Assembly: GCA_041657885.1 (NCBI GenBank)
Contig: JBBABB010000001.1
Span: forward strand, 267,184 to 331,183
Direction: 5' to 3'
Origin: Minisyncoccota bacterium
Lineage (GTDB): Bacteria; Patescibacteriota; Minisyncoccia; Phycocordibacterales; UBA9973
DNA length: 64,000 nt
Positions 39,290 through 56,065 of the stretch are shown in pieces. The notes under the pieces are model-generated. The model had not been told where the DNA came from. It was given only the letters and a program-made list of their open reading frames with translations, and searched no databases. Numbering within the stretch: the first letter of the stretch is position 1; every line of letters starts with the position of its first letter. The position numbers and the translations under genes were made by a program.

Positions 39290-39907
39290 ATGAAAGAAAT
39301 CTGTGTTTGGGCTGTGGGCTTCGTAATGTTATTGTTTTCCTTGAGATATATCTATCTCATCAAGAAACAAAAGATTAGCCCCGCCCTCTCAACTTGGGTT
39401 GTCTTTCTTTTGGGGACGATCTTGAGTTTGGTAACTTATGCCATCGCCGAAGATCATGATTTTCGGTCAGGTATTTTAAACACCGTAGATGTTGCTTCTG
39501 TCTCTATTATCATAATCGCTATTATAATTTATAGGGATAAAAATAGAAAAATTAAACCCTTTGATAGATGGTATATGATAGGTATAGGATTAATTGTTCT
39601 GTATGGTTTTCTTTCTAAGGATGCGTGGAATTCAAATATTTTCACCCAGATATTGATTGGAGTTGGATACATACCAACTTTCCAAAAATTAATATCAGAA
39701 AAGAAAAATACGGAATCCTTTTCAACTTGGAGCTTGAGCATTTTGTCAGGTGTGATTGCTTTTTACCCCGCGATAGTAGATGGTAATTCTTTGGCGATAA
39801 TTTACGCCACCCGTGCCATTATTATTGTCTCTCTTTTGATGTTAACTATGCTCTACTTTGAAATTTATTCAAAAAGGAAATTGGTTAATTCAAAAAAAAT
39901 AAACTGA
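39290..39907 (+). CDS. Hypothetical integral membrane protein
   Basis: The 205 aa protein has about 6 TM helices. Confidence 0.4.
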   Translation: MKEICVWAVGFVMLLFSLRYIYLIKKQKISPALSTWVVFLLGTILSLVTYAIAEDHDFRSGILNTVDVASVSIIIIAIIIYRDKNRKIKPFDRWYMIGIGLIVLYGFLSKDAWNSNIFTQILIGVGYIPTFQKLISEKKNTESFSTWSLSILSGVIAFYPAIVDGNSLAIIYATRAIIIVSLLMLTMLYFEIYSKRKLVNSKKIN

Positions 39908-44596: not shown

Positions 44597-45985
44597 TTAT
44601 TCAATTATTGTCATATCTTCGACCCTGATTCCTTTTTCTATATAATCTTCCACACTATTTTTCTTTTTTATGAGTAAAAAGGAAGCTACTCCTATGCCAA
44701 TAACCACCAAAAGGCCGATAATTGGGTAAATTGATTTTGGGATATTAGAACCAGATTCTCCGGCACTTGCGCCAAGGTCATTTAAATTTATTACCTGTGA
44801 GTCTTGTGATAAATCATCATCTAGCGAACTACTGTCCGCTTGAATTGGATTGATATATGATACTACTTTGCTTACTGACGAAACTCTCGATGTTAACTTT
44901 TTTGTTTCTGTTGGATAAGTAGCAGTTATCTCTTTGTTCGGGTCTGTGATAACAACCGAGGCGATATCCCCACCCACAAAACCAGTTATCTTCGGCGATA
45001 ATTTTATTTTTTTATTTGGTAAAAGAGTTGTTTCCTCTGGAATTATAAAATAATGCGTTCCGGCCGTGACAATCCAATTTGAAAGAATTATTTCAGAACT
45101 TGATTTATTCTCAATTTCTATATATGGGTCTGATGCGCTTCCAACTGAGCTTATGAAAATTTCGGACGGAATAACTTTTATTGTAATCCTATTTGTAGCA
45201 TCAGCTATTTGACTAAAAGTGCTATCAAAATACGAAAGTGTTAAGGCGTATTCTCCAGGATACTCATATATGTATTCAAAGGAGCTAGAATCTCCAACCT
45301 TTCTCACCATCCCATCGCCGAAATTCCAAACAAAGTTACCAACAGTGTAGGTCTCTCCTCTGTTGGTAGTAGTCAGTGAACTAAGTAAAAAAGGAATTCC
45401 AGCTGTAATAATCTTTGGCGATATAATTTTGGTTGTTATTTTTAGAATTTCAGGATTGTTTTTAACAAGAGGAGTAGGGTCAATGTTTTCGTCTGTTGTA
45501 TCACTAGTATTTTCATCTAGTGAATTATTTGATGAATCAGAATTAGGTAAATTTTTTGTTGGATCTTGATTTGTTATCCATTTGCCAGATATTAAAACCC
45601 CAGACTTATCTTTTGCAGGAGCCTTAATAATTCCATCTGTACCATAGATTACCGAATCAATTGTATTAGATGAGTTATCTTTTAGAATAATTGTATCCCC
45701 ATCATTATTGAGCCAACTTTTAGAATTTTCAAAAACAATAAATCCATTTGCAGATATTGTTCCATTTAAAATTAGGTCATCTGTCACTTTGTCGTTACCA
45801 TCAACCAATTTCCATCCATTAAGAACGATTGGACTTCCTGTTGTATTTAATAATTCAATCCATTCAATTCCGTCGGTTGGGCTAGATACAAATTCATTAA
45901 TAATTACATTTGCATGCGCTAAATTTATCCAAGAGAAAAATACTACTAGCAAAATTATATAATGTTTAATTATTTTTGGTGTCAT
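44597..45985 (-). CDS. Secreted lamin-tail-domain (LTD) protein with C-terminal membrane anchor
   Basis: It has a signal peptide, an N-terminal LTD signature (ANVIINEFVSSPTDGIEWIELLN), a Ser/Asp-rich linker and a C-terminal TM helix followed by KKKN. Confidence 0.5.
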   Translation of the reverse strand: MTPKIIKHYIILLVVFFSWINLAHANVIINEFVSSPTDGIEWIELLNTTGSPIVLNGWKLVDGNDKVTDDLILNGTISANGFIVFENSKSWLNNDGDTIILKDNSSNTIDSVIYGTDGIIKAPAKDKSGVLISGKWITNQDPTKNLPNSDSSNNSLDENTSDTTDENIDPTPLVKNNPEILKITTKIISPKIITAGIPFLLSSLTTTNRGETYTVGNFVWNFGDGMVRKVGDSSSFEYIYEYPGEYALTLSYFDSTFSQIADATNRITIKVIPSEIFISSVGSASDPYIEIENKSSSEIILSNWIVTAGTHYFIIPEETTLLPNKKIKLSPKITGFVGGDIASVVITDPNKEITATYPTETKKLTSRVSSVSKVVSYINPIQADSSSLDDDLSQDSQVINLNDLGASAGESGSNIPKSIYPIIGLLVVIGIGVASFLLIKKKNSVEDYIEKGIRVEDMTIIE

Positions 45986-45995
45986 AACAATAAAT

Positions 45996-48173
45996 TTATT
46001 CTAATACTTTACGTAGCACATCTTCCGGCACTTCCCTTTTTGCCTTGCGTTTCTGCCAAGAATTTGTATTAGGTTTTATTTCGGGTTCTGGTTGCGAAAC
46101 AGGAATGTCTTTTTGAGATGGTCTGGCTCCTCGTCCTCCCTCATCCGAGGACCTCTCAAAAAGATTTTCCTGTGAAGCAACCTCTATCTTCTCTTCTTTT
46201 TTTACTTCTACTGATTGAATCACTTTTTCTTTCTCTTTAATCCTTGATAACACATCTTTAAGCGTTGCTTTCTTTTCTTCTGACGCCTCTTTTGTGGGTA
46301 AAGTATTTGCTACTCTTACATTAGAATTATTATTTTCTTTTAATGCAGAAAGAGACATAGGTTCTTGTTTAGAAATAGGCGCAACAGTTTCCTCTATTTT
46401 AAATCCTTTTTCTTCTGCCCCCTCCTTACCTCCTTTAGCAATTTTCTCCAACAATCCTCGCAAAAGTGGAGAAGGCCCAGAGTGTTTCTTTTTTTCTACA
46501 AAAGAAGTCCTTCTGTCATTGGTATTAACATTGTTTGTTGCTTGAGATGAACCCTGTGGTTTATATGAAGAATCTTTCGGCTTACTAAACCCAGAAAAAT
46601 TATTGTGAGGTGCCCCAGCTTTTTGTTCCATGGGTTTAAATTCTATCCCCAACATCGCTAACGGCTCAGTCGAAACTTTTTCTTCTTGATGAGCTGAACG
46701 AGATGCCACAAATCCGCTTTCTGGTTTAAGCTCACCACTTTTAATTTTGTACATACACTCTTTACAATAAACAGGCCTACCTTCTTTGGGCTCAAAAGGG
46801 ACCATCGTGGACTTACCACAATTTGAACAATCAGCTTTGTATTTCGCATCACCATCTCCGACTTGAAGCATTCCACTCCACTTTGAAATTTCATCTTCAA
46901 CTTCTGCTCGTGGACGAGTATATAGTTTACGTGATGACTCTATAATTTTATCTTTAACACCTTTTGATAAATCTATTTTTATTGGAGGAAGAGTTGTCGC
47001 CGAGAATGGACGACTAGTTACACCATCAATCATTAACTTAACATAAATATGAAAGTTGGGTAAATTTACCAAATCTAGTGCTGTAAATTCAGGCTCAAAT
47101 TCTTTTTCTAAAAATTCGGCATCATCTCCACCAACACGGAAAACAATCATAGTCCCAACGTTACCGAAAACAGCATCACGAACTTTTGTGCTATCTTTAC
47201 TCTCAAGTTGAGCTGTATATTGGTGAGCCACAGTAAGATTGAGTCGATATTTACGAGCTTCAGAGAGAATATTTGCAAATGCATCCGTCGCAAAGTTTTG
47301 GAATTCATCAACATACAAATAAAAATCTTTTCTATCTTCTTCGGGAATTCTGACACGCTCCATCGCGGCAAGCTGAATTTTTGTAATAATCATACCTCCT
47401 AAAAGTGCTGAATTGTCTTCACCGATACGCCCTTTTGAAACGTTGACGAGAAAAATTTTCCCCTCATTCATTATTTTGAAAATATCAATAGTTGATTTTG
47501 GCTGACCAACAACATTACGAATAATAGAAGTTGAAAGGAATTGACCGACCTTATTTTGAATCGGAGCTATTGCTTCATTACGAAATTGGTCACGCCATTG
47601 TTCATATTCATGAACCCAAAAAGCTTTAACAACAGGGTCTTTCAAATTACCAATTATCATTTGTCGATAATCTTTATCCACCAAGAGTCTTGGGATACCT
47701 AGAAGCGTTGTCCCTGGAGTATCAAGAAGCGCAAGAATTGCATTATTCAAAATGTATTCCATACGAGAACTCCAAGCATTAGCCCAAATCTTCGTAAAAA
47801 TACCCATCAGCCCTGATGCTACTAAGTGTTTATATTTTGGATCGTCAAGTTGTATAACATTAAAACCGATATGAAATTCTGTATCAGCTGGATTAAAATA
47901 TATTACATCTTTTACTCTGTGGTCTGGAATAAGATGGAGGATTTCTTCTACGGTCTCTCCGTGCGGGTCCACCACACAAACGCCTTCACCATTCTGAATA
48001 TTCTGGGCAATAAGATTGGAAAGAAGAACAGATTTACCAGTACCTGACTTTCCCAAGATATACATATGCTGGCGACGATCTTTACGTTTTATGCCAAAAA
48101 TAGCATTAGTACTACGGAAGTTTGTTCTACCAAAATAAGTAATGTCTCGATTGTGTGGAATTTCATTTTCCAT
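45996..48173 (-). CDS. FtsK/HerA/T4CP-superfamily P-loop ATPase (DUF87 or TraG/VirD4-like, soluble) with an internal CxxC zinc ribbon and a long low-complexity C-terminal tail (paralog B)
   Basis: Walker A ILGKSGTGKSVLLSNL is followed by VCVVDPHGE, Walker B FYLYVDEFQNF and VAHQY. The zinc ribbon CSNCGKSTMVPFEPKEGRPVYCKEC sits at about aa 440-470, followed by a roughly 250 aa K/E/S/P-rich tail. There is no N-terminal TM segment. Confidence 0.6.
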   Translation of the reverse strand: MENEIPHNRDITYFGRTNFRSTNAIFGIKRKDRRQHMYILGKSGTGKSVLLSNLIAQNIQNGEGVCVVDPHGETVEEILHLIPDHRVKDVIYFNPADTEFHIGFNVIQLDDPKYKHLVASGLMGIFTKIWANAWSSRMEYILNNAILALLDTPGTTLLGIPRLLVDKDYRQMIIGNLKDPVVKAFWVHEYEQWRDQFRNEAIAPIQNKVGQFLSTSIIRNVVGQPKSTIDIFKIMNEGKIFLVNVSKGRIGEDNSALLGGMIITKIQLAAMERVRIPEEDRKDFYLYVDEFQNFATDAFANILSEARKYRLNLTVAHQYTAQLESKDSTKVRDAVFGNVGTMIVFRVGGDDAEFLEKEFEPEFTALDLVNLPNFHIYVKLMIDGVTSRPFSATTLPPIKIDLSKGVKDKIIESSRKLYTRPRAEVEDEISKWSGMLQVGDGDAKYKADCSNCGKSTMVPFEPKEGRPVYCKECMYKIKSGELKPESGFVASRSAHQEEKVSTEPLAMLGIEFKPMEQKAGAPHNNFSGFSKPKDSSYKPQGSSQATNNVNTNDRRTSFVEKKKHSGPSPLLRGLLEKIAKGGKEGAEEKGFKIEETVAPISKQEPMSLSALKENNNSNVRVANTLPTKEASEEKKATLKDVLSRIKEKEKVIQSVEVKKEEKIEVASQENLFERSSDEGGRGARPSQKDIPVSQPEPEIKPNTNSWQKRKAKREVPEDVLRKVLE

Positions 48174-48255
48174 AGATTGGATTCATTATACAATGATTCT
48201 TCCAAATAAAAAAGGGGTTATAATATTCAAAACATAAATGCTATAATCTAAAAAT

Positions 48256-48849
48256 ATGATTCCAGAATATTTCGCCTATCTTTCAATTCCTTTCATTGCT
48301 ATCGGTTCTTTCTTTTATATAAGAGATACCATCAGGGGGAAAACAAAACCCAATAGAGTTTCTTGGATATTTTGGATGATTGCTCCTTTTGTTGGTGTAT
48401 ATATAGGTTATAAATCTGGAGTTAGTCTTCCCCTACTTGCATCTACATTTGCCGCAGGATTTTGTCCTTTTCTTGTTTTAATTGCATCTATCTTTAATAA
48501 AAATTCGTATTGGAAAACTACAAAGTTTGATATTTTGTGTGGAATATTATCTCTAATAGCAATTATAATATGGGTTACAACAAAAAATGGAGCTATCTCA
48601 ATCACCTTTGCTGTTCTAGCTGATTTGTTCGCAAGTATTCCAACAATTATTAAAAGTTGGAAACATAGCGAGACAGAAAACATTGGCCCATATTCTTTTG
48701 GCACGATAAATCAAATAATTACTATTTTGGCTATAAGTAAATTTTCTTTTTTAAACCTAATTTTCCCTATTTATTTTATTTTAGATAATATAATTATTAT
48801 TTTAGGAGTAAAAAGAAAAAGTATTTTCAAACTAATCACTAGAAACTAG
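48256..48849 (+). CDS. Hypothetical integral membrane protein (about 6 TM) located between the ATPase and Cys-rich genes
   Basis: The 197 aa ORF is hydrophobic. It is the only plus-strand gene inside the 45996-54700 module. Confidence 0.4.
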   Translation: MIPEYFAYLSIPFIAIGSFFYIRDTIRGKTKPNRVSWIFWMIAPFVGVYIGYKSGVSLPLLASTFAAGFCPFLVLIASIFNKNSYWKTTKFDILCGILSLIAIIIWVTTKNGAISITFAVLADLFASIPTIIKSWKHSETENIGPYSFGTINQIITILAISKFSFLNLIFPIYFILDNIIIILGVKRKSIFKLITRN

Positions 48850-48863
48850 CTACTGGAAACTAA

Positions 48864-50573
48864 TTAATAAACTTCCGCTTGATAGCATTTTTCACAATAG
48901 ATTATTTCTGGACGGTCGGGGGCATAAGGGGTTTTAATTTCTATACCACATTTATTACAATTTCTATCATATAATCCGGGCTTATTTGTCCTATTAAATC
49001 TACGAGCGTGTCGACATTTTGGGCAAGAATGTGGAATTGGTTGATTAAATTTTTCTAATAATTCAAATTCAACATCGCTTATATTAAATCCTTTGTCACA
49101 GGTGCTACACCTGATAACTTCCTTTTTTATTCCTTTTGTCGTCTCATTAAATGTCTGTGGTAAAGAATCCGCCGAGTAGGTAAAGTTGTAAGTTTGTTTT
49201 GGAATATCGCACCAATTATAACCCTGAGTTTCAGCTTGTTTTTTTGATAATGGATTATATTCATAAGCCATGGTTTCATTATATCCAAAGGGAGATAGTT
49301 CTGGCGGTAAAAATTCTCCATATGTATAAGTATGCCCTGTTTTGTTTTTCCAAGGATTCTTTTTCATATCAGCAATAATTTTTTCTTTTAGTTCAAAATA
49401 TTCTTCTTTTGTGTATTGTTTATTCAAAATACAATATTGTTTTCTTTTCAAATTTACACAACCAAAACAATCTTTTCCTTGAATACAATAAAAAGAATAT
49501 TCTACATTTTGTGCATTTGGCCAACACTCTGCGCAAAATTTATTATTGTAAGCTCCTTCTCCTACAATGTAACATTCATAAAGTAGAGACGATTCAGCCC
49601 CCCATCCAGTATAATCATAACAATCTTTTGCCCCCTTAAGAGATAAATATTGAACGAAGCGACAATCTTCAGCTCCCGAAACAAGAAAAGCATTTTTTGT
49701 ATTCTTCGATTCATAAACATATTCTCCTGTAACATTTATATTTAAACTATTACCATGATAGGATCGTTTAGGCGCACTACTCCAAAAATTTTCAGATTGA
49801 TTTTTTAATTTTTGTTGACTTCCATAAGTATCTAATTTTAATTCTTTTAACTTTTCAAAATATTCATTTTTTAAATATTTCTTATTAAAAATAAAGTAAC
49901 TTTTATTTCGTAGATTTACGCATCCAATACAATCATTACACCCATAACACGACTGGCAAAAATAACAATTTATACAACTATCTAATTCTTCGCTCCATTT
50001 GCAGTTATAACATTTATAAATTCCAACACATTCATAACACAATTCTGATTCTTTGGCACGATAACAGTCAAGAAGATCTTTATTGTGAGCAGTCATCATT
50101 GTATAAGCACAGTGTTCATCGTAGTCAGCATAGATTGTCATAAAACAATTTTTCTGATACGAGGCGTTGTTTGCATATTTTGTATTAACAAGTGATGGGT
50201 AAAGGGATTCAAGCGCAACAAAGATAGATTTCTTTCGAAGCTCAATTAATTGCTCAAAAAAAGGTCTATTTTCATCGTATTCCATCCCATATTCTGTCCC
50301 ATCCCAATTGTCTTTCCACCAACAAGGATTACAGTACATTTTTGTTTCCCCCTCTGGGGGATACAAACAAATAACAAGCTCCCCACATGAATCGCATTTT
50401 TTCTTATAAAATGACGACAAATTACCAAAAACCATTCTTCGCATCATCCTACACTCTGGACAAAAAGTTGGTGCTGGAACTTTTATTTTCTCGTAAAATG
50501 AAAAATCGTCAGGCTCGATAACGAAGTCGTGTTTGCAATTCTGACATATTCGGTTTTCGCTTTTATATTCCAT
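48864..50573 (-). CDS. Large cysteine-rich multi-zinc-ribbon protein (paralog 2)
   Basis: The 569 aa protein has the N-terminal ribbon CQNCKHDFVIEPDDFSFYEKIKVPAPTFCPECR and the C-terminal ribbons CPKCRHARR...CNKCGIEIKTPYAPDRPEIIYCEKCY. Its internal repeat blocks are shared with the ORFs at 10762-12429 and 51444-53090. Confidence 0.6.
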   Translation of the reverse strand: MEYKSENRICQNCKHDFVIEPDDFSFYEKIKVPAPTFCPECRMMRRMVFGNLSSFYKKKCDSCGELVICLYPPEGETKMYCNPCWWKDNWDGTEYGMEYDENRPFFEQLIELRKKSIFVALESLYPSLVNTKYANNASYQKNCFMTIYADYDEHCAYTMMTAHNKDLLDCYRAKESELCYECVGIYKCYNCKWSEELDSCINCYFCQSCYGCNDCIGCVNLRNKSYFIFNKKYLKNEYFEKLKELKLDTYGSQQKLKNQSENFWSSAPKRSYHGNSLNINVTGEYVYESKNTKNAFLVSGAEDCRFVQYLSLKGAKDCYDYTGWGAESSLLYECYIVGEGAYNNKFCAECWPNAQNVEYSFYCIQGKDCFGCVNLKRKQYCILNKQYTKEEYFELKEKIIADMKKNPWKNKTGHTYTYGEFLPPELSPFGYNETMAYEYNPLSKKQAETQGYNWCDIPKQTYNFTYSADSLPQTFNETTKGIKKEVIRCSTCDKGFNISDVEFELLEKFNQPIPHSCPKCRHARRFNRTNKPGLYDRNCNKCGIEIKTPYAPDRPEIIYCEKCYQAEVY

Positions 50574-50628
50574 GTTGAATTTTTCTTATCCATAACACTT
50601 TTTGACGACCGCATTAATCCGTTATTGT

Positions 50629-51054
50629 CTATTCTTTATCCTTTTTATTTAAAATTGAAGAATGGAAAATTTCGGGGTTGTGTGGTTTGCCACACACAAT
50701 TTCTATTTTTGGTAAATTACCATTTTTTATGGATTTATTTAAATTATTTAAAAGTGCATGTTGGTCATAGCCGAGATAAACAACATCCGGTTTAACTTCT
50801 TTTAAAATATTATATGTCCCTATTTTAAGGTCACCTAAAAGAACTAAATCTATATCTGGAACTTCTAAAAGTGTATTTATTCTTTCCACTTCATTATTTT
50901 CTGGTAATTGACCCTTCAACTCTTTTACAACACTATCACGCGCAATAATAGCCACAAGATGATTACCTTGCTTTTTTGCATCCTTTATAAAAGATGAGTG
51001 TCCATCATGTATCCCATCAAAAACACCAAAAATTACTACGGTTTTATTAATCAT
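50629..51054 (-). CDS. Cytidylyltransferase-like nucleotidyltransferase (TagD/RibL-like HxGH family)
   Basis: The 141 aa protein has VVIFGVFDGIHDGHSSFIKDAKKQG, an HxGH nucleotidyltransferase motif, and a Rossmann-like fold. Confidence 0.5.
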   Translation of the reverse strand: MINKTVVIFGVFDGIHDGHSSFIKDAKKQGNHLVAIIARDSVVKELKGQLPENNEVERINTLLEVPDIDLVLLGDLKIGTYNILKEVKPDVVYLGYDQHALLNNLNKSIKNGNLPKIEIVCGKPHNPEIFHSSILNKKDKE

Positions 51055-51057
51055 ATT

Positions 51058-51363
51058 TTATTCAATAACTTTCATCATCCATTCTTTGTATGGGTGGTTT
51101 ATTCGGCGGACATCTACCCCTGCAATAAGTGGAACACTATAAGTGTGGTGTTCTGAAATAATCTGATTCACTTCTTCTATTTTTAATTCAAATGTAGTGA
51201 CCAAAAGCATCGCTTGCGACACACATTGAAAAGAACCTTCCCAACTATAACAAGAAGATATTGACCAAAAATCAACACAAGCCGCTATCTTTTTATTTAC
51301 AATTAATGACCCAAGTTCTTGAGCTTCGTCCATATTTTTACATGTTGTATATATAAATACCAT
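51058..51363 (-). CDS. cutA: Divalent-cation tolerance protein CutA
   Basis: The 101 aa protein has IAACV, SISSCYSWEGS and HTYSVPLIA...NHPYKEWM motifs that match the CutA1 family pattern. Confidence 0.55.
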   Translation of the reverse strand: MVFIYTTCKNMDEAQELGSLIVNKKIAACVDFWSISSCYSWEGSFQCVSQAMLLVTTFELKIEEVNQIISEHHTYSVPLIAGVDVRRINHPYKEWMMKVIE

Positions 51364-51443
51364 AAAATATATAGATAAATTAGGTTACGACCCTTATTTT
51401 TTAATTATATCACTATTTAAAGAGAGGTCTATATAAAAACACT

Positions 51444-53090
51444 TTAGTTTATATTTTGCTTATAGCACTCTTCACAAGCAATTTTTTTATATCCCCACTC
51501 GGGAGGATAATAGGCATCGATATTTTTCTTGCAGTAATAACAATTATATGGATAAGCCGTCAAAACTGTCGTGTACTTCATATTATTTTTTATTCGCACA
51601 TCAAAATGATATCGTGGAAGTGGAATATTATTTTGTTTGTAAAAAATTAATTCATTTTCAGCTATATTAAACCGCCAACCTGTCTCTGGACAAATAAGTG
51701 CTTGAGTTATTATAGTATCAGGAACATCATCTATGGAATCAGGTAATTCACTTGTTGGTATTCCTTCTATATGACTTTCACTAACATCTTCCCAATAACC
51801 ACCAAGTTTTAAAATATCTTCTTTTTTGGTTTCTGGAAAATATAAGAAGCTAGTAGAAAAATTAAATGGCCCAGCACTCATAGAATATGGCAAAAACTTT
51901 CCATATTCGCCTCTTTCTTTCATATCTTCAATAATTCTTGTCCTGAGCTTGTCGAAGGATTCTTTCGTATATTGTTTATTCAAAATACAATATTTCTTTT
52001 TCTTCAAACCAACACAACCGAAACAATATTCACATTCAAGACATAAATCCAAATATTCGGAATATCTTGATTGGGTCCAAGCCGAATATTTTAAAGCAAA
52101 AATATTCATACAACCGGCACAATTACCAGATAATTCTCCATACCAGCAACCATTACAATCTATATTGGATGTCTCTTTCATCCCTCTGACGCAATTATAA
52201 CTATCTTCAGAGTCGCTGATAGTAAAACAATTATGACAATTTTTCGTGTTCATCAGATTATCTCCATCAGAATTATAAGTTTTCAAATTAAAGTTTTCCC
52301 TATGAATTGCTTCTTTTTGCGCAATTTCTTCGAAATGTTTTTTGTGTAATTGAATTGATTTATATGAGCCAAGAAAGAATAACCCTAATTTTTTATCATA
52401 TTCCTCCTTAGAATACTGAACATTCTCTATGCAGTATGATTTGCCTCGCAAATTCCAACACATAAAACAATCCTGGCAGTTGCGACAATCTTGTAAAAAA
52501 TATGAATCAATACAATCCTTGGAATTTCTGGAATAGAACAATTTAAAAGAATTGAAACAATTAACCGAATCAAAACACTTTTCCGAATCAAAACAAACTA
52601 CTACATCTATTGAATTTCTAACTCTTAGATTTCTGTATGAATAATATAAATCTTCACATACTTCCATTGAACGAGATAAGTAACAATTTTTAGAATTCCA
52701 AACATCATCACACCAATCACAATTCGTATTTTTACTTCCATTCTGATGCGGATGTGGAACTTTTTCTTGAAGTTTTTGTAATTGAGTAAAAAATGGTTTT
52801 GAAGAATCATAATCTTGTCCAAAACTCATCACATCCCAAGCATCACTATGCCATTCTGTTAAAGTATAAATCGGATATCTATTCTTTTCTGGAAAAGTTG
52901 TAATTAAACTGTCCCCTGATAAATCAGAAACCCCTTTACGAAATTTACCAAACAACCAAAAAGACAAGTGTAATTTTATTCGGCAAAAGAAACACAATGT
53001 CGGTAATTCAATATCAACCTTTTCATACATAGATAATTTATCTTTTGTTATAGAAAACTCTTTCTTACAGTGTTCGCAAACTTTTTTCAT
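51444..53090 (-). CDS. Large cysteine-rich multi-zinc-ribbon protein (paralog 3)
   Basis: The 548 aa protein has the N-terminal ribbon CEHCKKEFSITKDKLSMYEKVDIELPTLCFFCR and the C-terminal ribbon CYYCKKNIDAYYPPEWGYKKIACEECY. Its internal block CFGCVGLKKKKYCILNKQYTKESFDKL is conserved with the other two paralogs. Confidence 0.6.
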   Translation of the reverse strand: MKKVCEHCKKEFSITKDKLSMYEKVDIELPTLCFFCRIKLHLSFWLFGKFRKGVSDLSGDSLITTFPEKNRYPIYTLTEWHSDAWDVMSFGQDYDSSKPFFTQLQKLQEKVPHPHQNGSKNTNCDWCDDVWNSKNCYLSRSMEVCEDLYYSYRNLRVRNSIDVVVCFDSEKCFDSVNCFNSFKLFYSRNSKDCIDSYFLQDCRNCQDCFMCWNLRGKSYCIENVQYSKEEYDKKLGLFFLGSYKSIQLHKKHFEEIAQKEAIHRENFNLKTYNSDGDNLMNTKNCHNCFTISDSEDSYNCVRGMKETSNIDCNGCWYGELSGNCAGCMNIFALKYSAWTQSRYSEYLDLCLECEYCFGCVGLKKKKYCILNKQYTKESFDKLRTRIIEDMKERGEYGKFLPYSMSAGPFNFSTSFLYFPETKKEDILKLGGYWEDVSESHIEGIPTSELPDSIDDVPDTIITQALICPETGWRFNIAENELIFYKQNNIPLPRYHFDVRIKNNMKYTTVLTAYPYNCYYCKKNIDAYYPPEWGYKKIACEECYKQNIN

Positions 53091-53170
53091 AATATTTTTA
53101 ATTCATAGAATTTTTCTCCTCAAGGACTTGCCTTGGGCTCTCTAAAGGCAAGACCTTTTCCCGAAAAATT

Positions 53171-54700
53171 CTAAATCAACGGCTCGCCACCTTTTTCTCC
53201 TTTTTTTGGTTTCTCTCTAGGGTTTGATTCTTTATTTATACTTTCACTTTTATTTTCTTCATTACCTATTTCTTCTTCACCTTCTTCTTTTTTATCTGCC
53301 ATTATGGCAGCTTTTTCTTGAGCAGACCTTATGATAGTTGCTTCTTCTTCAGCAATTAATCTCTGCGCTTCACCTGCCAAAATAGAATATTTGCGTCGAG
53401 AGGCCTCTATAGCTTCTTGACGATAAGAAGGATGAGTGGCTGGCAATACACGCAATGTTTCAGCAGAAAATGGGTCATAACTTTCTCCATCAATTGTCAT
53501 CTTAATAAAAAATTCCCCAACTCCAAGATTAATCATATCTTTTACATCAAAAATAGGAGCAAAATCCGATTTAAGTTTTACGGCGTCATCTCCCCCAACA
53601 CGAAAGGCAATAATAGAACCTGTATTACCAAGTACTGCTTCTTCAACCTTAGGCATAAGTTGACCAACATATTGGTGGGCTACTATAAGATTTATGCCAT
53701 ATTTACGAGCTTCTGAAATAATATTTTCAAAAGTATCAGTAACAATATTATGGAACTCATCCACATATAGATAAAAATCATTACGATCTTGTGGTTCTAA
53801 TTTAGCACGAGCCATACCAGCTTGCTTAATTTTAGTAAGAAACATTGCTCCAAAGAAAGAAGAGTTCTCCTCACCTATTTTCCCTTTTGACAGATTAATC
53901 AAAAGAATCTTTCGCTCATTCATTAATTCTTCCAGATCAATTTTATTTTCTTTTTGTCCAAAAATATTACGGAGCATTGGGTCAGAAAGAAACTGGCCTA
54001 ATTTGTTAACCAGAGGAATAATAGCATCAGTATCAAATTTCTCAGACCAGTCAGCGAATTCTATTGCCCAGAATCTTTTTACCATATCATCCCCTATATA
54101 CTCCACAACCTTCTGACGATAGTTACGATCAGTAAGCATACTAATCATTCCCCGCATAGTAGCATGAGGATAATCAAGAAGAGCAAGCGTTGTAAAACGA
54201 AAAACGTGCTCAAGACGAGGAGTCCAGTTTGCTCCGAATTGTTTTCTTAAAACTTCTATCAATCCTTGAGTGAGTTGATGTTTAAAAGTTGGGTCGATGT
54301 TTGCTAGAGGATTAAATGATGAAGGATAATTTATGTCGCCTGGGTCGATTATACAAATATCTTCAATTCTCTCTTTAGGAATAAAATTTAAAATATCTTC
54401 AATAAGCTCTCCGTGTGGGTCTATAACACAAACACCTTGGCCGTAAGCTATATCTTGTCTAATCATTAATTCTAAAAGCTTAGACTTACCAGTACCTGAC
54501 TTTCCAATTATGTACATATGACGTCTACGGTCAATACGCTTGATACCAAAGACGAATTTCTTTTCTTCTAGAGATGCAACATAGTTCGTACGCCCAATAA
54601 AAACAACATCACTTGGGTCTGATTTCCCGAGAGTTGGAAGATCTGGAGGCGGCGGAGCATATTTAATTATCTGAATTTTGTTTGGCTTATTGAGTGACAT
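53171..54700 (-). CDS. FtsK/HerA/T4CP-superfamily P-loop ATPase (paralog A, shorter, lacking the zinc ribbon and tail)
   Basis: The 509 aa protein has Walker A IIGKSGTGKSKLLELM, then VCVIDPHGE, Walker B FYLYVDEFHNI and VAHQY. It is collinear with residues 1-430 of the ATPase at 45996-48173. Confidence 0.6.
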   Translation of the reverse strand: MSLNKPNKIQIIKYAPPPPDLPTLGKSDPSDVVFIGRTNYVASLEEKKFVFGIKRIDRRRHMYIIGKSGTGKSKLLELMIRQDIAYGQGVCVIDPHGELIEDILNFIPKERIEDICIIDPGDINYPSSFNPLANIDPTFKHQLTQGLIEVLRKQFGANWTPRLEHVFRFTTLALLDYPHATMRGMISMLTDRNYRQKVVEYIGDDMVKRFWAIEFADWSEKFDTDAIIPLVNKLGQFLSDPMLRNIFGQKENKIDLEELMNERKILLINLSKGKIGEENSSFFGAMFLTKIKQAGMARAKLEPQDRNDFYLYVDEFHNIVTDTFENIISEARKYGINLIVAHQYVGQLMPKVEEAVLGNTGSIIAFRVGGDDAVKLKSDFAPIFDVKDMINLGVGEFFIKMTIDGESYDPFSAETLRVLPATHPSYRQEAIEASRRKYSILAGEAQRLIAEEEATIIRSAQEKAAIMADKKEEGEEEIGNEENKSESINKESNPREKPKKGEKGGEPLI

Positions 54701-54751: not shown

Positions 54752-56065
54752 ATGGAGAAGGAAGAAAAGAAAGAACCATTATCACAAGAAGGAGACCTGC
54801 CCGAAATGCACAAGCAGGCGGGAAATTATATTAAAAAGCTTGGCCCAGGAATTATTACTGGAGCAGCCGATGATGACCCCGCTGGAATTGCTACCTATTC
54901 TCAAGCTGGTGCTCAATATGGAACAGGTCTAACTTGGCTTGCTGCTTGGACATATCCCTTTGTAGCTACCGTTCAAGAAATGTGCGCTCGTATTGCTCTC
55001 GTCACCGGACGAGGTTTGGCCGCTAACATAAAACATACCTATTCAAGAGAAATACTTTACGTTTGTACAATTCTTTTATTTTTTGCTAACACATTAAATA
55101 TTGGTGCTGATTTAGGGGCCATGGCAAAAGCAGTCCAGCTACTAGCTCCCGGGGCTTCATTTATTTTTTTAGTTGTGTTTATTGGTATCGTTGGATTATT
55201 TTTAGAAATATTAATTCCCTATAGAAGATATACAAAATATCTCAAATGGTTAGTTATCGCCGTTTTTGCATATATTGCCACTGGATTAATTATCAATATG
55301 GATTGGTCTGTGTTGCTACGAGATGGACTTATTCCACAAATTACATTTTCTAAAACTCAAATTCTTCTCATCACCGGAATATTGGGAACTACCATTTCTC
55401 CATATTTATTTTTCTGGCAAACTTCACAAGAAATAGAAGAGGAAATTTCCGAAGGCAAGACGACTGTTCGCTCACGCAAAGGAACTACCCACGCCGAAAT
55501 TAAAGAAATGCGAGTTGATATTTGGGCTGGAATGTTTTTGTCTAATCTCGTCATGTTCTTTATTATTGCTGTCTGCGCTAATACTCTTTTTGTCAATGGA
55601 ATTACAAACATAAGTACCGCCGCCGATGCTGCTCGTGCACTTCGTCCTCTTGCTGGACAATGGGCATCGTTACTTTTTGCCGTAGGAATTATTGGAACTG
55701 GATTGTTGGCTATTCCAGTACTGGCGGGTTCCGCTGCTTACGCAATTTCTGAAAGTTTTGGATGGAGAGAAGGATTATACCGAAAATTTAAAACAGCTCA
55801 TGCATTTTATGGAGTCATCGCTGTTTCAATTATCATCGGTATTTTAATTAATTTTATTGGCATTGACCCGATTAAAGCGCTCATTTATTCGGCCATTGTA
55901 AACGGAGTTGTTGCTCCAGTAATTCTGATATTCATAGTTAAAATAAGTAGTAGTAAAAAAATAATGGGTGAATTTAAAAATTCCCTGATAATAAAAATAT
56001 TAGGATGGACAGCAACCATATTTATGGGCATTGCCGCAGTTGCTACAATTATTTCCTTGTTCTAA
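54752..56065 (+). CDS. mntH: NRAMP-family divalent metal (Mn2+/Fe2+) transporter
   Basis: The 437 aa protein has about 11 TM helices and an NRAMP signature near the N-terminus (GPGIITGAADDDPAGIATYSQAGAQYG). Confidence 0.7.
   Translation: MEKEEKKEPLSQEGDLPEMHKQAGNYIKKLGPGIITGAADDDPAGIATYSQAGAQYGTGLTWLAAWTYPFVATVQEMCARIALVTGRGLAANIKHTYSREILYVCTILLFFANTLNIGADLGAMAKAVQLLAPGASFIFLVVFIGIVGLFLEILIPYRRYTKYLKWLVIAVFAYIATGLIINMDWSVLLRDGLIPQITFSKTQILLITGILGTTISPYLFFWQTSQEIEEEISEGKTTVRSRKGTTHAEIKEMRVDIWAGMFLSNLVMFFIIAVCANTLFVNGITNISTAADAARALRPLAGQWASLLFAVGIIGTGLLAIPVLAGSAAYAISESFGWREGLYRKFKTAHAFYGVIAVSIIIGILINFIGIDPIKALIYSAIVNGVVAPVILIFIVKISSSKKIMGEFKNSLIIKILGWTATIFMGIAAVATIISLF

What the first reader, a model, noticed from the sequence alone, without database searches (positions are those of the whole stretch)
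45996..54700. Duplicated two-gene module: multi-zinc-ribbon Cys-rich protein plus FtsK/HerA/T4CP-like ATPase, of unknown function
On the minus strand the order is ATPase-A (53171-54700), Cys-rich-A (51444-53090), then cutA and a nucleotidyltransferase, then Cys-rich-B (48864-50573), a 6-TM protein on the plus strand, and ATPase-B (45996-48173). The ATPases have Walker A GKSGTGKS, then DPHGE, Walker B YLYVDEF and AHQY. This places them in the FtsK/HerA/TraG-VirD4 translocase superfamily, but they lack the N-terminal TM anchor of canonical coupling proteins. The Cys-rich proteins are about 550 aa with more than 50 Cys. They share N- and C-terminal ribbons of the form C-x2-C-x(10-12)-FY-x-K/R-x-K-V/L-P-x-P-x2-C-x2-C-R and a duplicated internal block C.GC.(N/G)L(R/K).K.Y.I.NKQYTKEEY. 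I know of no characterised system that pairs such proteins. Candidate roles include a DNA or protein translocation machine, a conjugation or competence-like apparatus, or an uncharacterised defence system. The tandem duplication in inverted gene order suggests recent expansion.
Basis: partly seen in the sequence, partly recalled or inferred. Interest (0 to 1): 0.8.

Follow-up and report, generated by a model that had tools for sequence, protein, structure and literature searches.

The report
Orphan coupling-ATPase pair with zinc-ribbon proteins
Two very strongly conserved motor-like ATPases of an ultra-small (Patescibacteria) bacterium sit beside members of a large, uncharacterised family of zinc-binding cysteine-rich proteins, and in many relatives the block lies inside the dnaK-dnaJ chaperone operon, so it is probably an undescribed housekeeping machine and not a conjugation or defence system.

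Summary
The ORFs, ATPase motifs and repeated Cys motifs are real at the stated coordinates. Two claims are wrong. The Cys-rich proteins have 41 and 34 Cys, not more than 50. The duplication is ancient, not recent: 30% and 45% identity between the paralogues.

The pairing recurs. Of ATPase-anchored loci of at least 15 kb, 29/32 carry a Cys-rich gene and 30/32 the second ATPase. 229 of 230 Cys-rich genes share the ATPase strand, with operon-like gaps.

Cys-rich genes form arrays of up to nine full-length copies, and a third copy lies at 10762-12429. 57 loci read dnaK - ATPase-B - Cys-rich(n) - ATPase-A - dnaJ - TM6. The window shows the other common layout, beside Nramp with CutA and a nucleotidyltransferase.

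ATPase-A is as conserved as DnaK. ATPase-B adds the CxxC-x17-CxxC zinc knuckle also found in the Cys-rich proteins, a disordered tether and an invariant C-terminal peptide. The ATPases fall between coupling proteins (TrwB, Cagbeta, DotL) and HerA, not with FtsK. They lack a membrane anchor and T4SS neighbours.

The Cys-rich protein is built A-B-B'-A', with no structural match. It is absent from the phage, plasmid and viral collections searched.

Best reading (0.4): exapted coupling-protein-like ATPases with the Cys-rich proteins as clients or adaptors.

The parts
53171..54700 (-). ATPase-A: soluble ring-ATPase-like protein of the VirD4/TraG-HerA clade, 509 aa. Orthologues are about 500 aa, have no zinc finger and end in EP(L/M)I.
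   Evidence: ORF. Pfam TrwB_AAD_bind 35 bits, T4SS-DNA_transf 32.8, TraG-D_C 28.1, DUF87 34.3. No TM segment. Orthologues 75-92% identical. As conserved as DnaK in the same locus pairs. AF2 model with Foldseek hits to HerA, Cagbeta, DotL and TrwB.
53174..53185 (-). Extreme C-terminal peptide EPLI of ATPase-A, at the end of a low-confidence acidic/Lys-rich tail (aa 456-509).
   Evidence: Last four residues are EPMI or EPLI in 96 of 101 ATPase-A orthologues. The tail has pLDDT below 50.
51444..53090 (-). Cys-rich protein A (548 aa, 34 Cys). It belongs to the subfamily usually found next to ATPase-A and CutA. Ribbons 2 and 3 are degenerate.
   Evidence: Its orthogroup (OG8) is next to an ATPase in 7 of 12 loci and next to CutA in 5 of 12. 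Orthologues 70-84% identical.
51058..51363 (-). CutA1 (PII-like trimer family). A recurrent member of the block.
   Evidence: Pfam CutA1 83.7 bits. Found in 31 loci. ATPase-A to CutA adjacency in 17 loci, median gap 94 bp.
50629..51054 (-). Cytidylyltransferase-like nucleotidyltransferase (141 aa), likely translationally coupled to cutA (CutA-to-NTase median gap 2 bp). Present in window-like lineages only.
   Evidence: Pfam CTP_transf_like 43.1 bits. CutA to NTase adjacency in 18 loci, median gap 2 bp.
48864..50573 (-). Cys-rich protein B (569 aa, 41 Cys), the best-conserved subfamily, with all four zinc ribbons intact. Built A-B-B'-A'.
   Evidence: Cys-column conservation. AF2 model pLDDT 73, pTM 0.76. 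Its orthogroup is next to an ATPase in only 1 of 25 loci.
50313..50558 (-). CysB N-terminal two-ribbon module (aa 6-87). Ribbon 1: C10, C13, C38, C41. Ribbon 2, a CxxC-x17-CxxC: C60, C63, C81, C84.
   Evidence: Ribbon 1 Cys are 98-100% conserved and ribbon 2 about 51% across 280 members. Homologous to the C-terminal module, E 2.6e-27. Pfam zf_Tbcl weak hit.
49839..50171 (-). CysB middle repeat 1 (aa 135-245): Cys-ladder, beta-solenoid-like segment ending in C.GC.NL+.K.Y.I.N..Y.K.EY.
49377..49724 (-). CysB middle repeat 2 (aa 284-399), ending in CFGCVNLKRKQYCILNKQYTKEEY.
   Evidence: C372 96%, N384 99%, Y387 98% conserved.
48876..49121 (-). CysB C-terminal two-ribbon module (aa 485-566). Ribbon 3: C489, C492, C517, C520. 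Ribbon 4, a CxxC-x17-CxxC: C539, C542, C560, C563.
   Evidence: Ribbon 3 Cys 89-99% and ribbon 4 Cys 98-99% conserved. Pfam zf_Tbcl_2 24.4 bits at aa 535-566.
48256..48849 (+). TM6: small polytopic membrane protein (197 aa) that travels with the block in different gene orders.
   Evidence: Family of 44 members in 42 loci. DnaJ to TM6 median gap 3 bp in 29 loci. No Pfam or NCBIfam family. Weak profile hit to SemiSWEET 4x5m, E 0.068.
46869..48173 (-). ATPase-B core (aa 1-435), paralogue of ATPase-A (45% identical).
   Evidence: Orthologues 67-94% identical.
46746..46841 (-). CxxC-x17-CxxC zinc knuckle of ATPase-B (aa 445-476), the same domain type as ribbons 2 and 4 of the Cys-rich proteins.
   Evidence: Pfam zf_Tbcl_2 53.6 bits and TIGR04272 56.4 bits. 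Present in 54 of 59 ATPase-B and 0 of 105 ATPase-A. An HMM of it hits 85 of 280 Cys-rich proteins and 1 of 1,721 other neighbour proteins.
46035..46745 (-). Low-complexity K/E/S/P-rich tether of ATPase-B (aa 477-713).
   Evidence: Tail length 143-291 aa and composition across orthologues.
45999..46034 (-). Invariant C-terminal peptide EVPEDVLRKVLE of ATPase-B.
   Evidence: The motif lies within the last 25 residues of 46 of 54 ATPase-B orthologues. No protein outside the ATPase family among the 2,238 locus proteins carries it.
44597..45985 (-). Signal-peptide and C-terminal-TM surface protein with lamin-tail and PKD domains, 10 bp downstream of ATPase-B. A lineage-specific recurrent neighbour.
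   Evidence: Pfam LTD 76 bits plus PKD. TM-like segments at aa 5-23 and 421-439. Directly follows an ATPase gene (by position ATPase-B; my table labels both ATPases alike) in 11 of the 12 loci that carry it (10 window-like plus L073; in L026 it is 2 genes downstream of the Cys-rich array).
54752..56065 (+). Nramp divalent-metal transporter, divergent from ATPase-A. A lineage-specific conserved neighbour.
   Evidence: Pfam Nramp 289 bits. Adjacent in 16 of 80 ATPase-A-anchored loci, median gap 100 bp.
10762..12429 (-). Third Cys-rich paralogue (555 aa, 34 Cys), standing alone between two Mur ligase genes.
   Evidence: 30-31% identical to CysA and CysB. Pfam zf_Tbcl and zf_Tbcl_2 weak hits at its C-terminus.
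39290..39907 (+). Distant TM6-family paralogue (205 aa). Its relatives lie between dnaK and ATPase-B in some loci. Membership of the block is uncertain.
   Evidence: Clustered with TM6. 18% identical to TM6 in alignment A5. Matches L143:3574-4173.

Best explanation
This is one copy of a vertically inherited, housekeeping-grade gene block of Paceibacteria-type Patescibacteria.

Constant parts: two paralogous soluble ATPases of the VirD4/TraG-HerA clade.
- ATPase-A is about 500 aa and ends in EP(L/M)I.
- ATPase-B has the same core plus a CxxC-x17-CxxC zinc knuckle, a 143-291 aa disordered tether and the invariant end peptide EVPEDVLRK(I/V)LE.

Variable and accessory parts:
- Between or beside the ATPases lie 0-6 members of an ancient family of about 570-aa cytoplasmic proteins. 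They are built A-B-B'-A': a basic two-zinc-ribbon end module, two Cys-ladder solenoid-like repeats, and a second two-ribbon end module.
- CutA and small membrane proteins accompany them.

Proposed mechanism: the ATPases act like exapted type IV coupling proteins. They would be ring motors or receptors that dock partners through tethered end peptides and the shared zinc knuckle. The Cys-rich proteins would be their clients or adaptors. The conserved ribbon ends would serve as the common handle, and the variable acidic middle as the paralogue-specific part. DnaK and DnaJ would take part, because the block is apparently co-transcribed with them in the largest lineage.

Shown: composition, conservation, linkage, operon-like spacing, domain sharing, and the absence of T4SS, mobile-element or defence context.

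Inferred: ring assembly, physical contact, and whether the outcome is delivery to or through the membrane or remodelling in the cytoplasm.
For: Linkage:
- In ATPase-A-anchored loci of at least 15 kb, 29 of 32 have a Cys-rich gene and 30 of 32 have ATPase-B. The nearest Cys-rich gene is a median 132 bp away.
- 229 of 230 Cys-rich genes are on the ATPase strand.
- Median gaps: ATPase-B to Cys-rich 4 bp, Cys-rich to Cys-rich 24 bp, Cys-rich to ATPase-A 64 bp, DnaK to ATPase-B 68 bp, ATPase-A to DnaJ 23 bp.
- The adjacency survives in 3 or more different gene orders: dnaK-embedded (57 loci), Nramp/CutA/NTase type (28) and DUF8128/s176 type (6).

Shared parts:
- The zinc knuckle is in 54 of 59 ATPase-B. 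An HMM of it hits 85 of 280 Cys-rich proteins against 1 of 1,721 other neighbour proteins.
- The end peptides are invariant.

ATPase placement:
- T4CP Pfam profiles score above their cut-offs.
- Foldseek places the ATPase-A model with HerA, Cagbeta, DotL and TrwB (TM-score 0.60 normalised to TrwB). FtsK scores only E 0.078.

Housekeeping grade:
- ATPase-A is 86% identical between locus pairs in which DnaK is 84%.

Cys-rich family shape:
- Termini are conserved and basic (pI 8.4-8.7). The middle is acidic (pI 5.4) and is the least conserved part.
- 12 orthogroups of 5 or more members; within each, ribbon 2 is either mostly kept or mostly lost.

Literature (PMC12102498): 5,713 VirD4-like genes in 2,918 of 3,035 Patescibacteria genomes, only 148 near virB4. 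The authors say exaptation cannot be excluded.
Against: - No interaction was tested, and no multimer prediction tool was available.
- Many Cys-rich genes stand alone, far from any ATPase. The orthogroup of CysB is next to an ATPase in 1 of 25 loci, and the third window copy lies among mur genes.
- 12 of 52 loci with both ATPases have no Cys-rich gene between them.
- Synteny in small, slowly rearranging genomes can persist without function.
- My loci are phylogenetically related, and were picked as the best matches to this window's own proteins.
- Zinc ribbons with basic flanks would fit nucleic-acid binding just as well.
- Both structural models are only of moderate confidence (pLDDT 73 and 68).
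Confidence: 0.4

Rival explanations
1. Nucleic-acid machine. The ring ATPases translocate DNA or RNA, as TrwB, HerA and FtsK do. The Cys-rich proteins are nucleic-acid-binding accessory factors that hold the polymer through their basic zinc ribbons. The role could be DNA uptake or scavenging, nucleoid compaction or RNA handling in ultra-small cells.
For: - The closest solved relatives are DNA-dependent motors: TrwB, HerA-NurA and DotL.
- The NCBIfam CedD DNA-translocating ATPase gives a partial hit.
- The ribbon modules are basic (pI 8.4-8.7) and carry CR..RR motifs.
- The extreme conservation of ATPase-A fits a universal polymer substrate.
- Some lone Cys-rich copies lie beside ribosomal protein genes.
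Against: - No nuclease, helicase, recombinase or competence gene recurs in the block.
- The function of the zinc-ribbon domain types is unknown. Only zinc binding has been shown for CxxC-x17-CxxC proteins (PMC12704099).
- This reading does not explain the dnaK-dnaJ embedding or the tethered end peptides.
Confidence: 0.2
2. Conserved synteny without functional coupling. The ATPases and the Cys-rich genes are neighbours only by descent in small genomes with stable gene order, and each has its own unrelated role.
For: - Many Cys-rich genes are unlinked to ATPases.
- 12 of 52 ATPase pairs have no Cys-rich gene between them.
- Unrelated housekeeping genes (cysS, an arginase-family gene, recR, dnaB) are also syntenic.
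- The sampled loci are phylogenetically related.
Against: - The adjacency persists through at least 3 different rearrangements.
- Strand concordance is 229 of 230.
- Spacing is operon-like.
- One zinc-knuckle type is shared almost exclusively by the two families.
Confidence: 0.15
3. Stress buffer. The Cys-rich proteins are zinc-thiolate redox or metal sinks, or Hsp33-like holdases. They would work with DnaK-DnaJ, CutA and Nramp, and the ATPases would recycle or unfold them.
For: - The block is embedded in dnaK-dnaJ in 57 loci.
- CutA recurs (31 loci), and Nramp is adjacent in the window lineage.
- There are four predicted Cys4 sites per protein.
- CxxC-x17-CxxC proteins bind zinc (PMC12704099).
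- The zinc-centre logic of Hsp33 and DnaJ is established knowledge (recalled, not tested here).
Against: - Cys content is only 6-7%, and many conserved aromatic residues point to a defined fold, unlike metallothioneins.
- A generic buffer would not be expected to diversify anciently into many orthogroups with a variable middle region.
- Nramp linkage is lineage-specific.
Confidence: 0.12
4. Canonical mobile-element or defence function. The ATPases are coupling proteins of a conjugative element, or HerA-type defence ATPases, with the Cys-rich proteins as effectors.
For: - T4CP Pfam hits.
- PADLOC mad8 and HerA partial hits.
- Cousins 29-55% identical to the ATPase-B core lie on IMG/VR contigs beside an M23 peptidase, a PLD nuclease, a serine recombinase and a phage portal.
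- HerA-effector complexes are a known defence design (PDB hits 8suw and 8zir).
Against: - None of the neighbour families I annotated is a T4SS or relaxase gene, and defence genes are limited to a methylase/ResIII pair in L166, beside an IMG/VR cousin of the ATPase rather than the block itself.
- Conservation equals that of DnaK.
- The block sits at fixed chromosomal positions inside core operons.
- There are no Cys-rich homologues in phage, plasmid or IMG/VR collections.
- NCBIfam equivalog cut-offs are missed by far.
- No N-terminal TM anchor and no HAS-barrel-sized N-terminus.
Confidence: 0.04

Closest known systems
Type IV coupling proteins with C-terminal docking tails (TrwB/VirD4/Cagbeta; F-plasmid TraD-TraM; Legionella DotL with its IcmSW/DotN/LvgA adaptor complex)
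   Same: - Profile matches to the P-loop domain (PF10412, PF02534, PF12696 above cut-off).
- A helical insertion between Walker A and Walker B in the model.
- Foldseek hits to TrwB, Cagbeta and DotL.
- A long disordered C-terminal extension ending in a conserved peptide. This resembles the TraD and DotL tails that dock partners or adaptors (recalled knowledge, not tested here).
- T4CPs are often encoded beside their substrate genes and not with the channel genes (PMC12102498).
   Different: - No N-terminal membrane anchor.
- No T4SS or relaxase gene among the neighbour families I annotated.
- Two fixed paralogues.
- Conservation at DnaK level.
- A zinc knuckle on one paralogue.
- A position inside dnaK-dnaJ.
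- Sequence similarity to solved T4CPs is confined largely to the Walker A region.
- NCBIfam T4CP cut-offs are not reached.
HerA ring ATPases with adjacent partner proteins (HerA-NurA; Sir2-HerA; DUF4297-HerA defence complexes)
   Same: - The best Foldseek E-value is to HerA (1.9e-9).
- A DUF87 Pfam hit.
- The design of a ring ATPase encoded next to the protein that assembles on it.
   Different: - Only about 55 residues precede Walker A, so there is no HAS-barrel-sized domain.
- No nuclease, Sir2 or other effector gene.
- Not in defence islands.
- NCBIfam HerA models score 16-17 bits against cut-offs of 800-970.
Type VII secretion EccC/EssC FtsK-like ATPases with multigene substrate families
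   Same: Analogy only: a superfamily ATPase genetically linked to arrays of paralogous client proteins recognised through conserved terminal signals.
   Different: - EccC/EssC are membrane-anchored, multi-domain FtsK-type ATPases.
- Here there is no FtsK_SpoIIIE hit at all.
- The clients here are 570-aa zinc-ribbon proteins, not small WXG-type helical hairpins.
Zinc-centre chaperones working with DnaK (DnaJ Cys-rich domain, Hsp33)
   Same: Cys4 zinc sites, and genetic linkage to dnaK-dnaJ.
   Different: - No sequence or fold similarity detected.
- A different motif (CxxC-x17-CxxC and C-x2-C-x24-C-x2-C, against CxxCxGxG).
- Much larger proteins with solenoid-like repeats and many paralogues.

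Membership tests
Type IV coupling protein (VirD4/TraG/TraD/TrwB) | P-loop NTPase domain matching T4CP profiles | tested here: met
   PF10412 51.1 and 35.0 bits (cut-off 20.5). PF02534 31.4 and 32.8 (cut-off 20.1). PF12696 31.8 and 28.1 (cut-off 22)..
Type IV coupling protein (VirD4/TraG/TraD/TrwB) | All-alpha domain inserted in the nucleotide-binding domain | tested here: inconclusive
   The model has a helical insertion at aa 137-261 between Walker A and Walker B. TM-score to TrwB is 0.60 normalised to TrwB. The model pLDDT is only 68.
Type IV coupling protein (VirD4/TraG/TraD/TrwB) | N-terminal transmembrane anchor | tested here: not met
   No TM-like segment in either ATPase; highest 19-residue hydropathy means 0.99 and 1.23.
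Type IV coupling protein (VirD4/TraG/TraD/TrwB) | Encoded with a T4SS (virB4 and others) or a relaxase | tested here: not met
   None of the neighbour families I annotated by Pfam is a T4SS or relaxase gene, and none occurs among the window ORFs I scanned. Several smaller families were not annotated. Literature: 148 of 5,713 lie near virB4 (PMC12102498).
Type IV coupling protein (VirD4/TraG/TraD/TrwB) | Reaches curated NCBIfam T4CP model cut-offs | tested here: not met
   The best score is conju_CD1115 at 57.2 bits against a cut-off of 250. TraD models score 33-53 bits against cut-offs of 366-648.
HerA helicase | N-terminal HAS-barrel plus HerA model score | tested here: not met
   About 55 residues precede Walker A, with three short strands only. 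NF040819 scores 16.1 bits against 970, and NF042943 17.3 against 800.
FtsK/SpoIIIE | FtsK_SpoIIIE motor-domain profile and fold | tested here: not met
   No PF01580 hit at E 0.01 or better. The FtsK motor ranks 44th in Foldseek, E 0.078, TM-score 0.25.
Known anti-phage defence systems (PADLOC-DB) | Matches to the components of a described system, in a defence or mobile context | tested here: not met
   Only generic ATPase hits (mad8 E 1e-16, HerA fragments) and nothing for the Cys-rich or TM6 proteins. Neighbours are housekeeping genes. No Cys-rich homologues in phages, plasmids or IMG/VR.
CxxC-x17-CxxC / zf_Tbcl_2 zinc-knuckle domain (TIGR04272, PF23477) | Two CxxC pairs 17 residues apart, with the model score reached | tested here: met
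   ATPase-B scores 56.4 bits (cut-off 36) and 53.6 bits (cut-off 27). CysB has the exact spacing twice (C60/63-x17-C81/84 and C539/542-x17-C560/563) but scores 24.4 bits, just under the cut-off.
CutA1 | Full-length match to the CutA1 model | tested here: met
   PF03091 83.7 bits (cut-off 22.4), covering positions 2-97 of 99.
Metallothionein-like metal sink | Small protein, about 30% Cys, few aromatic residues | tested here: not met
   548-569 aa and 6-7% Cys. Many Tyr, Phe and Trp positions are at least 90% conserved.

The most novel reading that the evidence does not exclude
The block is a previously undescribed, Patescibacteria-specific core cellular machine. It would consist of a hetero-paralogous pair of exapted coupling-protein ATPases, co-expressed with Hsp70/Hsp40, that handles a large ancient family of multi-zinc solenoid proteins. 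One possibility is loading or exporting them at the cell envelope for the episymbiotic lifestyle. This would also explain the two orphan 'T4CP' genes found in most Patescibacteria genomes.
Probability: 0.3. Interest if true: 0.85.

Novelty: new variant of a known kind. Interest (0 to 1): 0.68.

Why it matters
About 96% of the Patescibacteria genomes surveyed carry roughly two VirD4-like genes that are not next to a type IV secretion system, and their role is an acknowledged open point (PMC12102498).

This analysis gives those orphans, at least in the Paceibacteria-type genomes sampled here, a concrete setting:
- two fixed paralogues with distinctive tails;
- conservation equal to DnaK;
- operon-like linkage to a very large uncharacterised protein family (5,100 clusters at 50% identity);
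- frequent insertion into the dnaK-dnaJ operon.

The question 'what do these ATPases do?' therefore becomes a set of direct binding, ATPase and localisation experiments on a few defined proteins. If the proposed link holds, it would be a lineage-specific core machine in organisms with minimal genomes.

Tried and rejected
- **Defence.** PADLOC gave nothing specific.
- **Mobile elements.** No CysB homologue in GenBank phages, PLSDB plasmids or IMG/VR.
- **Literature.** Five searches found no description of the Cys-rich family or of the pairing. The Lipocone preprint that matched my search terms is unrelated.
- **Accessory proteins.**
  - The TM6 profile gave only a weak SemiSWEET hit, E 0.068.
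  - DUF8128 gave no PDB hit and no hit in the Pfam copy used.
- **Promoter and terminator scan.** The window region held no more promoter-like sites than shuffled sequence, and no convincing internal terminator in the intergenic gaps, so it does not define transcription units.
- **Recent duplication.** Rejected on identity and orthology.
- **FtsK assignment.** Rejected.
- **IMG/VR cousins of the ATPase.** I looked at their contexts for hints. The contexts were mixed mobile-element, phage and chromosomal, and carried no Cys-rich genes.

Full report
**1. What is in the window**

| Feature | Coordinates | Strand | Length |
|---|---|---|---|
| ATPase-B | 45996-48173 | - | 725 aa |
| Polytopic membrane protein (TM6) | 48256-48849 | + | 197 aa |
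| CysB | 48864-50573 | - | 569 aa |
| Nucleotidyltransferase | 50629-51054 | - | 141 aa |
| CutA | 51058-51363 | - | 101 aa |
| CysA | 51444-53090 | - | 548 aa |
| ATPase-A | 53171-54700 | - | 509 aa |

- Both ATPases contain GKSGTGKS, DPHGE, YLYVDEF and AHQY. Neither has a TM-like segment.
CysB has 41 Cys and CysA 34, and the family median is 34.
- ATPase-A is 100% identical to a protein of an NCBI 'Candidatus Paceibacterota' MAG on a 362-kb contig. The closest CysB relatives are labelled Nomurabacteria.
- The rest of the window is housekeeping: mur genes, LepA, MurJ and aminoacyl-tRNA synthetases. I found no T4SS gene among the ORFs I scanned.

**2. The ATPases**

- Pfam places both in the coupling-protein/HerA group. 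TrwB_AAD_bind, T4SS-DNA_transf, TraG-D_C and DUF87 all score above their cut-offs, and there is no FtsK_SpoIIIE hit.
- Curated NCBIfam T4CP and HerA models are missed by a wide margin.
- A family profile finds TrwB (E 3e-5), HerA (1.5e-3) and DotL (4.6e-3) among solved structures, matching little beyond the Walker A region.
- The AF2 model of ATPase-A (pLDDT 68) has a helical insertion between Walker A and Walker B.
- That model matches HerA, Cagbeta, DotL, TrwB (TM-score 0.60 normalised to TrwB) and VirB4. FtsK scores only E 0.078.
- The family therefore sits between coupling proteins and HerA, without the membrane anchor of the former or a HAS-barrel-sized N-terminus like the latter.

**3. 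Two fixed ATPase paralogues with different tails**

- ATPase-A and ATPase-B are 45% identical.
- Across fetched loci, 105 ATPase-A orthologues have a median length of 500 aa and none has a zinc finger.
- 96 of 101 ATPase-A orthologues end in EPMI or EPLI.
- 59 ATPase-B orthologues have a median length of 707 aa. 54 of them carry a CxxC-x17-CxxC knuckle right after the core.
- The knuckle is followed by a 143-291 aa K/E/P/S-rich tail. 46 of 54 have the motif VPEDVL(R/K)K(I/V)L within the last 25 residues. No protein outside the ATPase family among the 2,238 locus proteins has this motif.
- In 91 locus pairs, median identities were:

| Protein | Median identity |
|---|---|
| ATPase-A | 86% |
| DnaK | 84% |
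| DnaJ | 76% |
| ATPase-B (tail included) | 72% |
| CysS | 62% |

- This is housekeeping-grade constraint.

**4. The Cys-rich family**

- A word-indexed search found more than 7,000 relatives. All that carry a name are Patescibacteria, and their length is very constant.
- An exhaustive profile search found 5,100 clusters at 50% identity with E of 1e-3 or better, and 2,072 with E of 1e-30 or better.
- The protein is internally duplicated as A-B-B'-A'. The N-module (aa 6-87) matches the C-module (aa 485-566) at E 2.6e-27. Middle repeat 1 (aa 135-245) matches middle repeat 2 (aa 284-399) at E 7e-37.
- Each end module is a C-x2-C-x24-C-x2-C ribbon followed by a CxxC-x17-CxxC ribbon.
- Cys conservation over 280 members:

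| Ribbon | Cys conservation |
|---|---|
| 1 | 98-100% |
| 2 | about 51% |
| 3 | 89-99% |
| 4 | 98-99% |

- Ribbon 2 is mostly kept or mostly lost within each orthogroup.
- The ends are basic (pI 8.4-8.7). The middle is acidic (pI 5.4) and is the least conserved part. No member has a long hydrophobic run of the kind that would form a TM helix or signal anchor.
- CxxC-x17-CxxC proteins of Methanosarcina have been shown to bind zinc (PMC12704099).
- The AF2 model (pLDDT 73, pTM 0.76) is confident at both ends and poor in the Cys-ladder repeats.

**5. The paralogues are ancient**

- CysA and CysB are 30% identical.
- Of 236 family members that have a same-locus paralogue, 232 have their closest relative in another locus. 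Median best identity is 41% within a locus and 66% between loci.
- At 52% identity there are 12 orthogroups of 5 or more members.
- 'Recent expansion' is therefore refuted.

**6. Linkage, tested in both directions**

Forward test:
- A scan of GTDB species genomes with the Cys-rich profile gave at least 588 relatives, and I kept 80 loci.
- 48 of the 80 hold two or more copies, and arrays reach nine full-length copies.
- 13 of the 29 loci of at least 20 kb contain an ATPase orthologue.

Reverse test:
- A metagenome scan with ATPase-A gave another 80 loci.
- Of the 32 loci of at least 15 kb, 29 contain a Cys-rich gene and 30 contain ATPase-B.
- The nearest Cys-rich gene lies a median 132 bp away.

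Strand and spacing:
- 229 of 230 Cys-rich genes share the ATPase strand.
- Median intergenic gaps are operon-like:

| Adjacent genes | Median gap |
|---|---|
| ATPase-B to Cys-rich | 4 bp |
| Cys-rich to Cys-rich | 24 bp |
| Cys-rich to ATPase-A | 64 bp |

Expectation by chance:
- This is my own rough estimate. With two ATPase genes in a genome of about 0.7 Mb, a random gene would lie within 10 kb of one about 6% of the time.

Caveats:
- The loci are related to each other.
- They were chosen as the best matches to this window's proteins.
- Genes were called with a simple longest-ORF rule.

**7. Three gene orders keep the pairing**

(a) dnaK-embedded, 57 loci:
- The order is PaaX-like(-) | dnaK - ATPase-B - Cys-rich(n) - ATPase-A - dnaJ - TM6 - ... 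cysS(-).
- Median gaps are DnaK to ATPase-B 68 bp, ATPase-A to DnaJ 23 bp and DnaJ to TM6 3 bp.

(b) Window-like, 28 loci:
- The order is Nramp(-) | ATPase-A - [Cys-rich] - CutA - NTase - [Cys-rich] - TM6 or a second small protein on the other strand - ATPase-B - LTD/PKD surface protein.

(c) Jorgensenbacteria/Niyogibacteria-like, 6-8 loci:
- The order is SecD - SecF - sigma-like - DUF8128 (apparent N-terminal hydrophobic anchor, about two helices by eye) - a 176-aa protein with one apparent N-terminal hydrophobic helix - ATPase-A - CutA - Cys-rich(n).

- In loci with both ATPases, 0-6 Cys-rich genes lie between them. 12 of 52 have none.
- CutA (31 loci) and TM6 (42 loci) move with the block.
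- Many Cys-rich copies stand alone beside ribosomal-protein, pseudouridine-synthase or mur genes.
- The orthogroup of CysB is next to an ATPase in 1 of 25 loci. That of CysA is next to one in 7 of 12.

**8. A shared domain links the two families**

- An HMM built from the ATPase-B knuckle hits ribbon 2 or ribbon 4 of 85 of 280 Cys-rich proteins.
- It hits only 1 of 1,721 other proteins encoded in the same loci.

**9. What it is not**

- Not defence: PADLOC gives only generic ATPase matches, and the neighbours are housekeeping genes.
- Not a mobile element: CysB has no homologue in GenBank phages, PLSDB plasmids or IMG/VR.
- Not a canonical conjugation module: none of the neighbour families I annotated is a T4SS or relaxase gene.
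- More distant ATPase cousins (29-55% identical to the ATPase-B core) do occur on IMG/VR contigs. They lie beside an M23 peptidase, a PLD nuclease, a serine recombinase or a phage portal. This is consistent with an origin from mobile-element ATPases.
- The literature I could search reports 5,713 VirD4-like genes in 2,918 of 3,035 Patescibacteria genomes, only 148 of them near virB4. The homologue is non-essential in Ca. S. epibionticum. The authors state that exaptation cannot be excluded (PMC12102498).
- I found no paper describing the Cys-rich family or the pairing.

**10. Most likely mechanism (confidence 0.4)**

- The two ATPases are exapted coupling-protein-like ring motors or receptors.
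- Tethered, invariant end peptides on flexible tails are how TraD and DotL dock their partners. That is recalled knowledge and was not tested here.
- ATPase-B also carries the zinc knuckle that caps the Cys-rich proteins.
- The Cys-rich proteins have conserved basic ribbon ends and a variable acidic solenoid-like body. This is the shape expected of a family of clients or adaptors that share one docking handle.
- Operon-like linkage to dnaK-dnaJ suggests handling together with Hsp70/Hsp40.
- The recurring small membrane proteins (TM6, DUF8128 with the 176-aa protein, and the LTD surface protein) suggest activity near the membrane.

Shown: composition, conservation, linkage, domain sharing, and exclusion of FtsK, defence and mobile-element contexts.

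Inferred: ring formation, contacts, and whether the result is export or cytoplasmic remodelling.

**11. Rivals**

- A nucleic-acid machine (0.2).
- Conserved synteny without functional coupling (0.15).
- A redox or metal stress buffer acting with DnaK-DnaJ, CutA and Nramp (0.12).
- A canonical mobile-element or defence function (0.04).

**12. Verdict**

- The pairing is non-random and, as far as I could find, undescribed.
- Function remains unproven.
- I rate it a new variant of a known kind: coupling-protein/HerA-type ATPases with partner proteins.
- I give about 30% chance that it is a new lineage-specific core machine.

Noticed in passing
window 27039-29849 (-): The leucyl-tRNA synthetase (936 aa) carries a DUF559/Vsr-like restriction-endonuclease-fold domain inserted at aa 269-366, between the catalytic and editing regions.
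   Followed up: no
window 10762-12429 (-): A third Cys-rich paralogue (555 aa, 34 Cys) sits between two Mur ligase genes, far from any ATPase. It was not in the finding.
   Followed up: partly
window 44597-45985 (-): A signal-peptide and C-terminal-TM surface protein with lamin-tail and PKD domains starts 10 bp after ATPase-B. It directly follows an ATPase gene (by position ATPase-B) in 11 of the 12 loci that carry it (10 window-like plus L073; in L026 it is 2 genes downstream of the Cys-rich array).
   Followed up: partly
window 48256-48849 (+); alignment A5: The TM6 family profile gives a weak hit (E 0.068) to E. coli SemiSWEET 4x5m, so it may be a SWEET/PQ-loop-like transporter. In dnaK-type loci it lies 3 bp after dnaJ and close to cysS, which raises an untested 'cysteine supply' idea.
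   Followed up: partly
window 42426-43940 (+): This 504-aa protein begins with an XRE-type helix-turn-helix-looking segment followed by a MurA/EPSP-synthase-like body (read from the translation). It recurs near the block in 6 loci. Pfam was not run on it.
   Followed up: no
L003, L020, L036, L062, L073, L155, L164 (e.g. L003:6254-8170): In Jorgensenbacteria/Niyogibacteria-like loci, ATPase-A is preceded by a 464-aa protein with an apparent N-terminal hydrophobic anchor (DUF8128 in precomputed Pfam) and, in six of these seven loci, by a 176-aa protein with one apparent N-terminal hydrophobic helix. SecD, SecF and a sigma-like gene lie just upstream in several of them. No structural or family match was found.
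   Followed up: partly
L165-L174 (IMG/VR contigs): ATPase cousins (29-55% identical to the ATPase-B core) lie on contigs called viral, next to an M23 peptidase, a PLD-like nuclease, a serine recombinase, a methylase/ResIII pair or an SU10-type portal. No Cys-rich genes are present there.
   Followed up: partly
L143:910-1416 and 23 other loci: A small PaaX-like protein (a Cas2-like PaaX_M domain plus a weak, below-cut-off winged-helix match) is encoded divergently just upstream of dnaK in the dnaK-embedded loci. It may be the operon's regulator.
   Followed up: no
window 59379-60305 (-): An N6/N4 DNA methylase gene lies about 4.7 kb from ATPase-A. It is not adjacent to the block and does not recur with it.
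   Followed up: no
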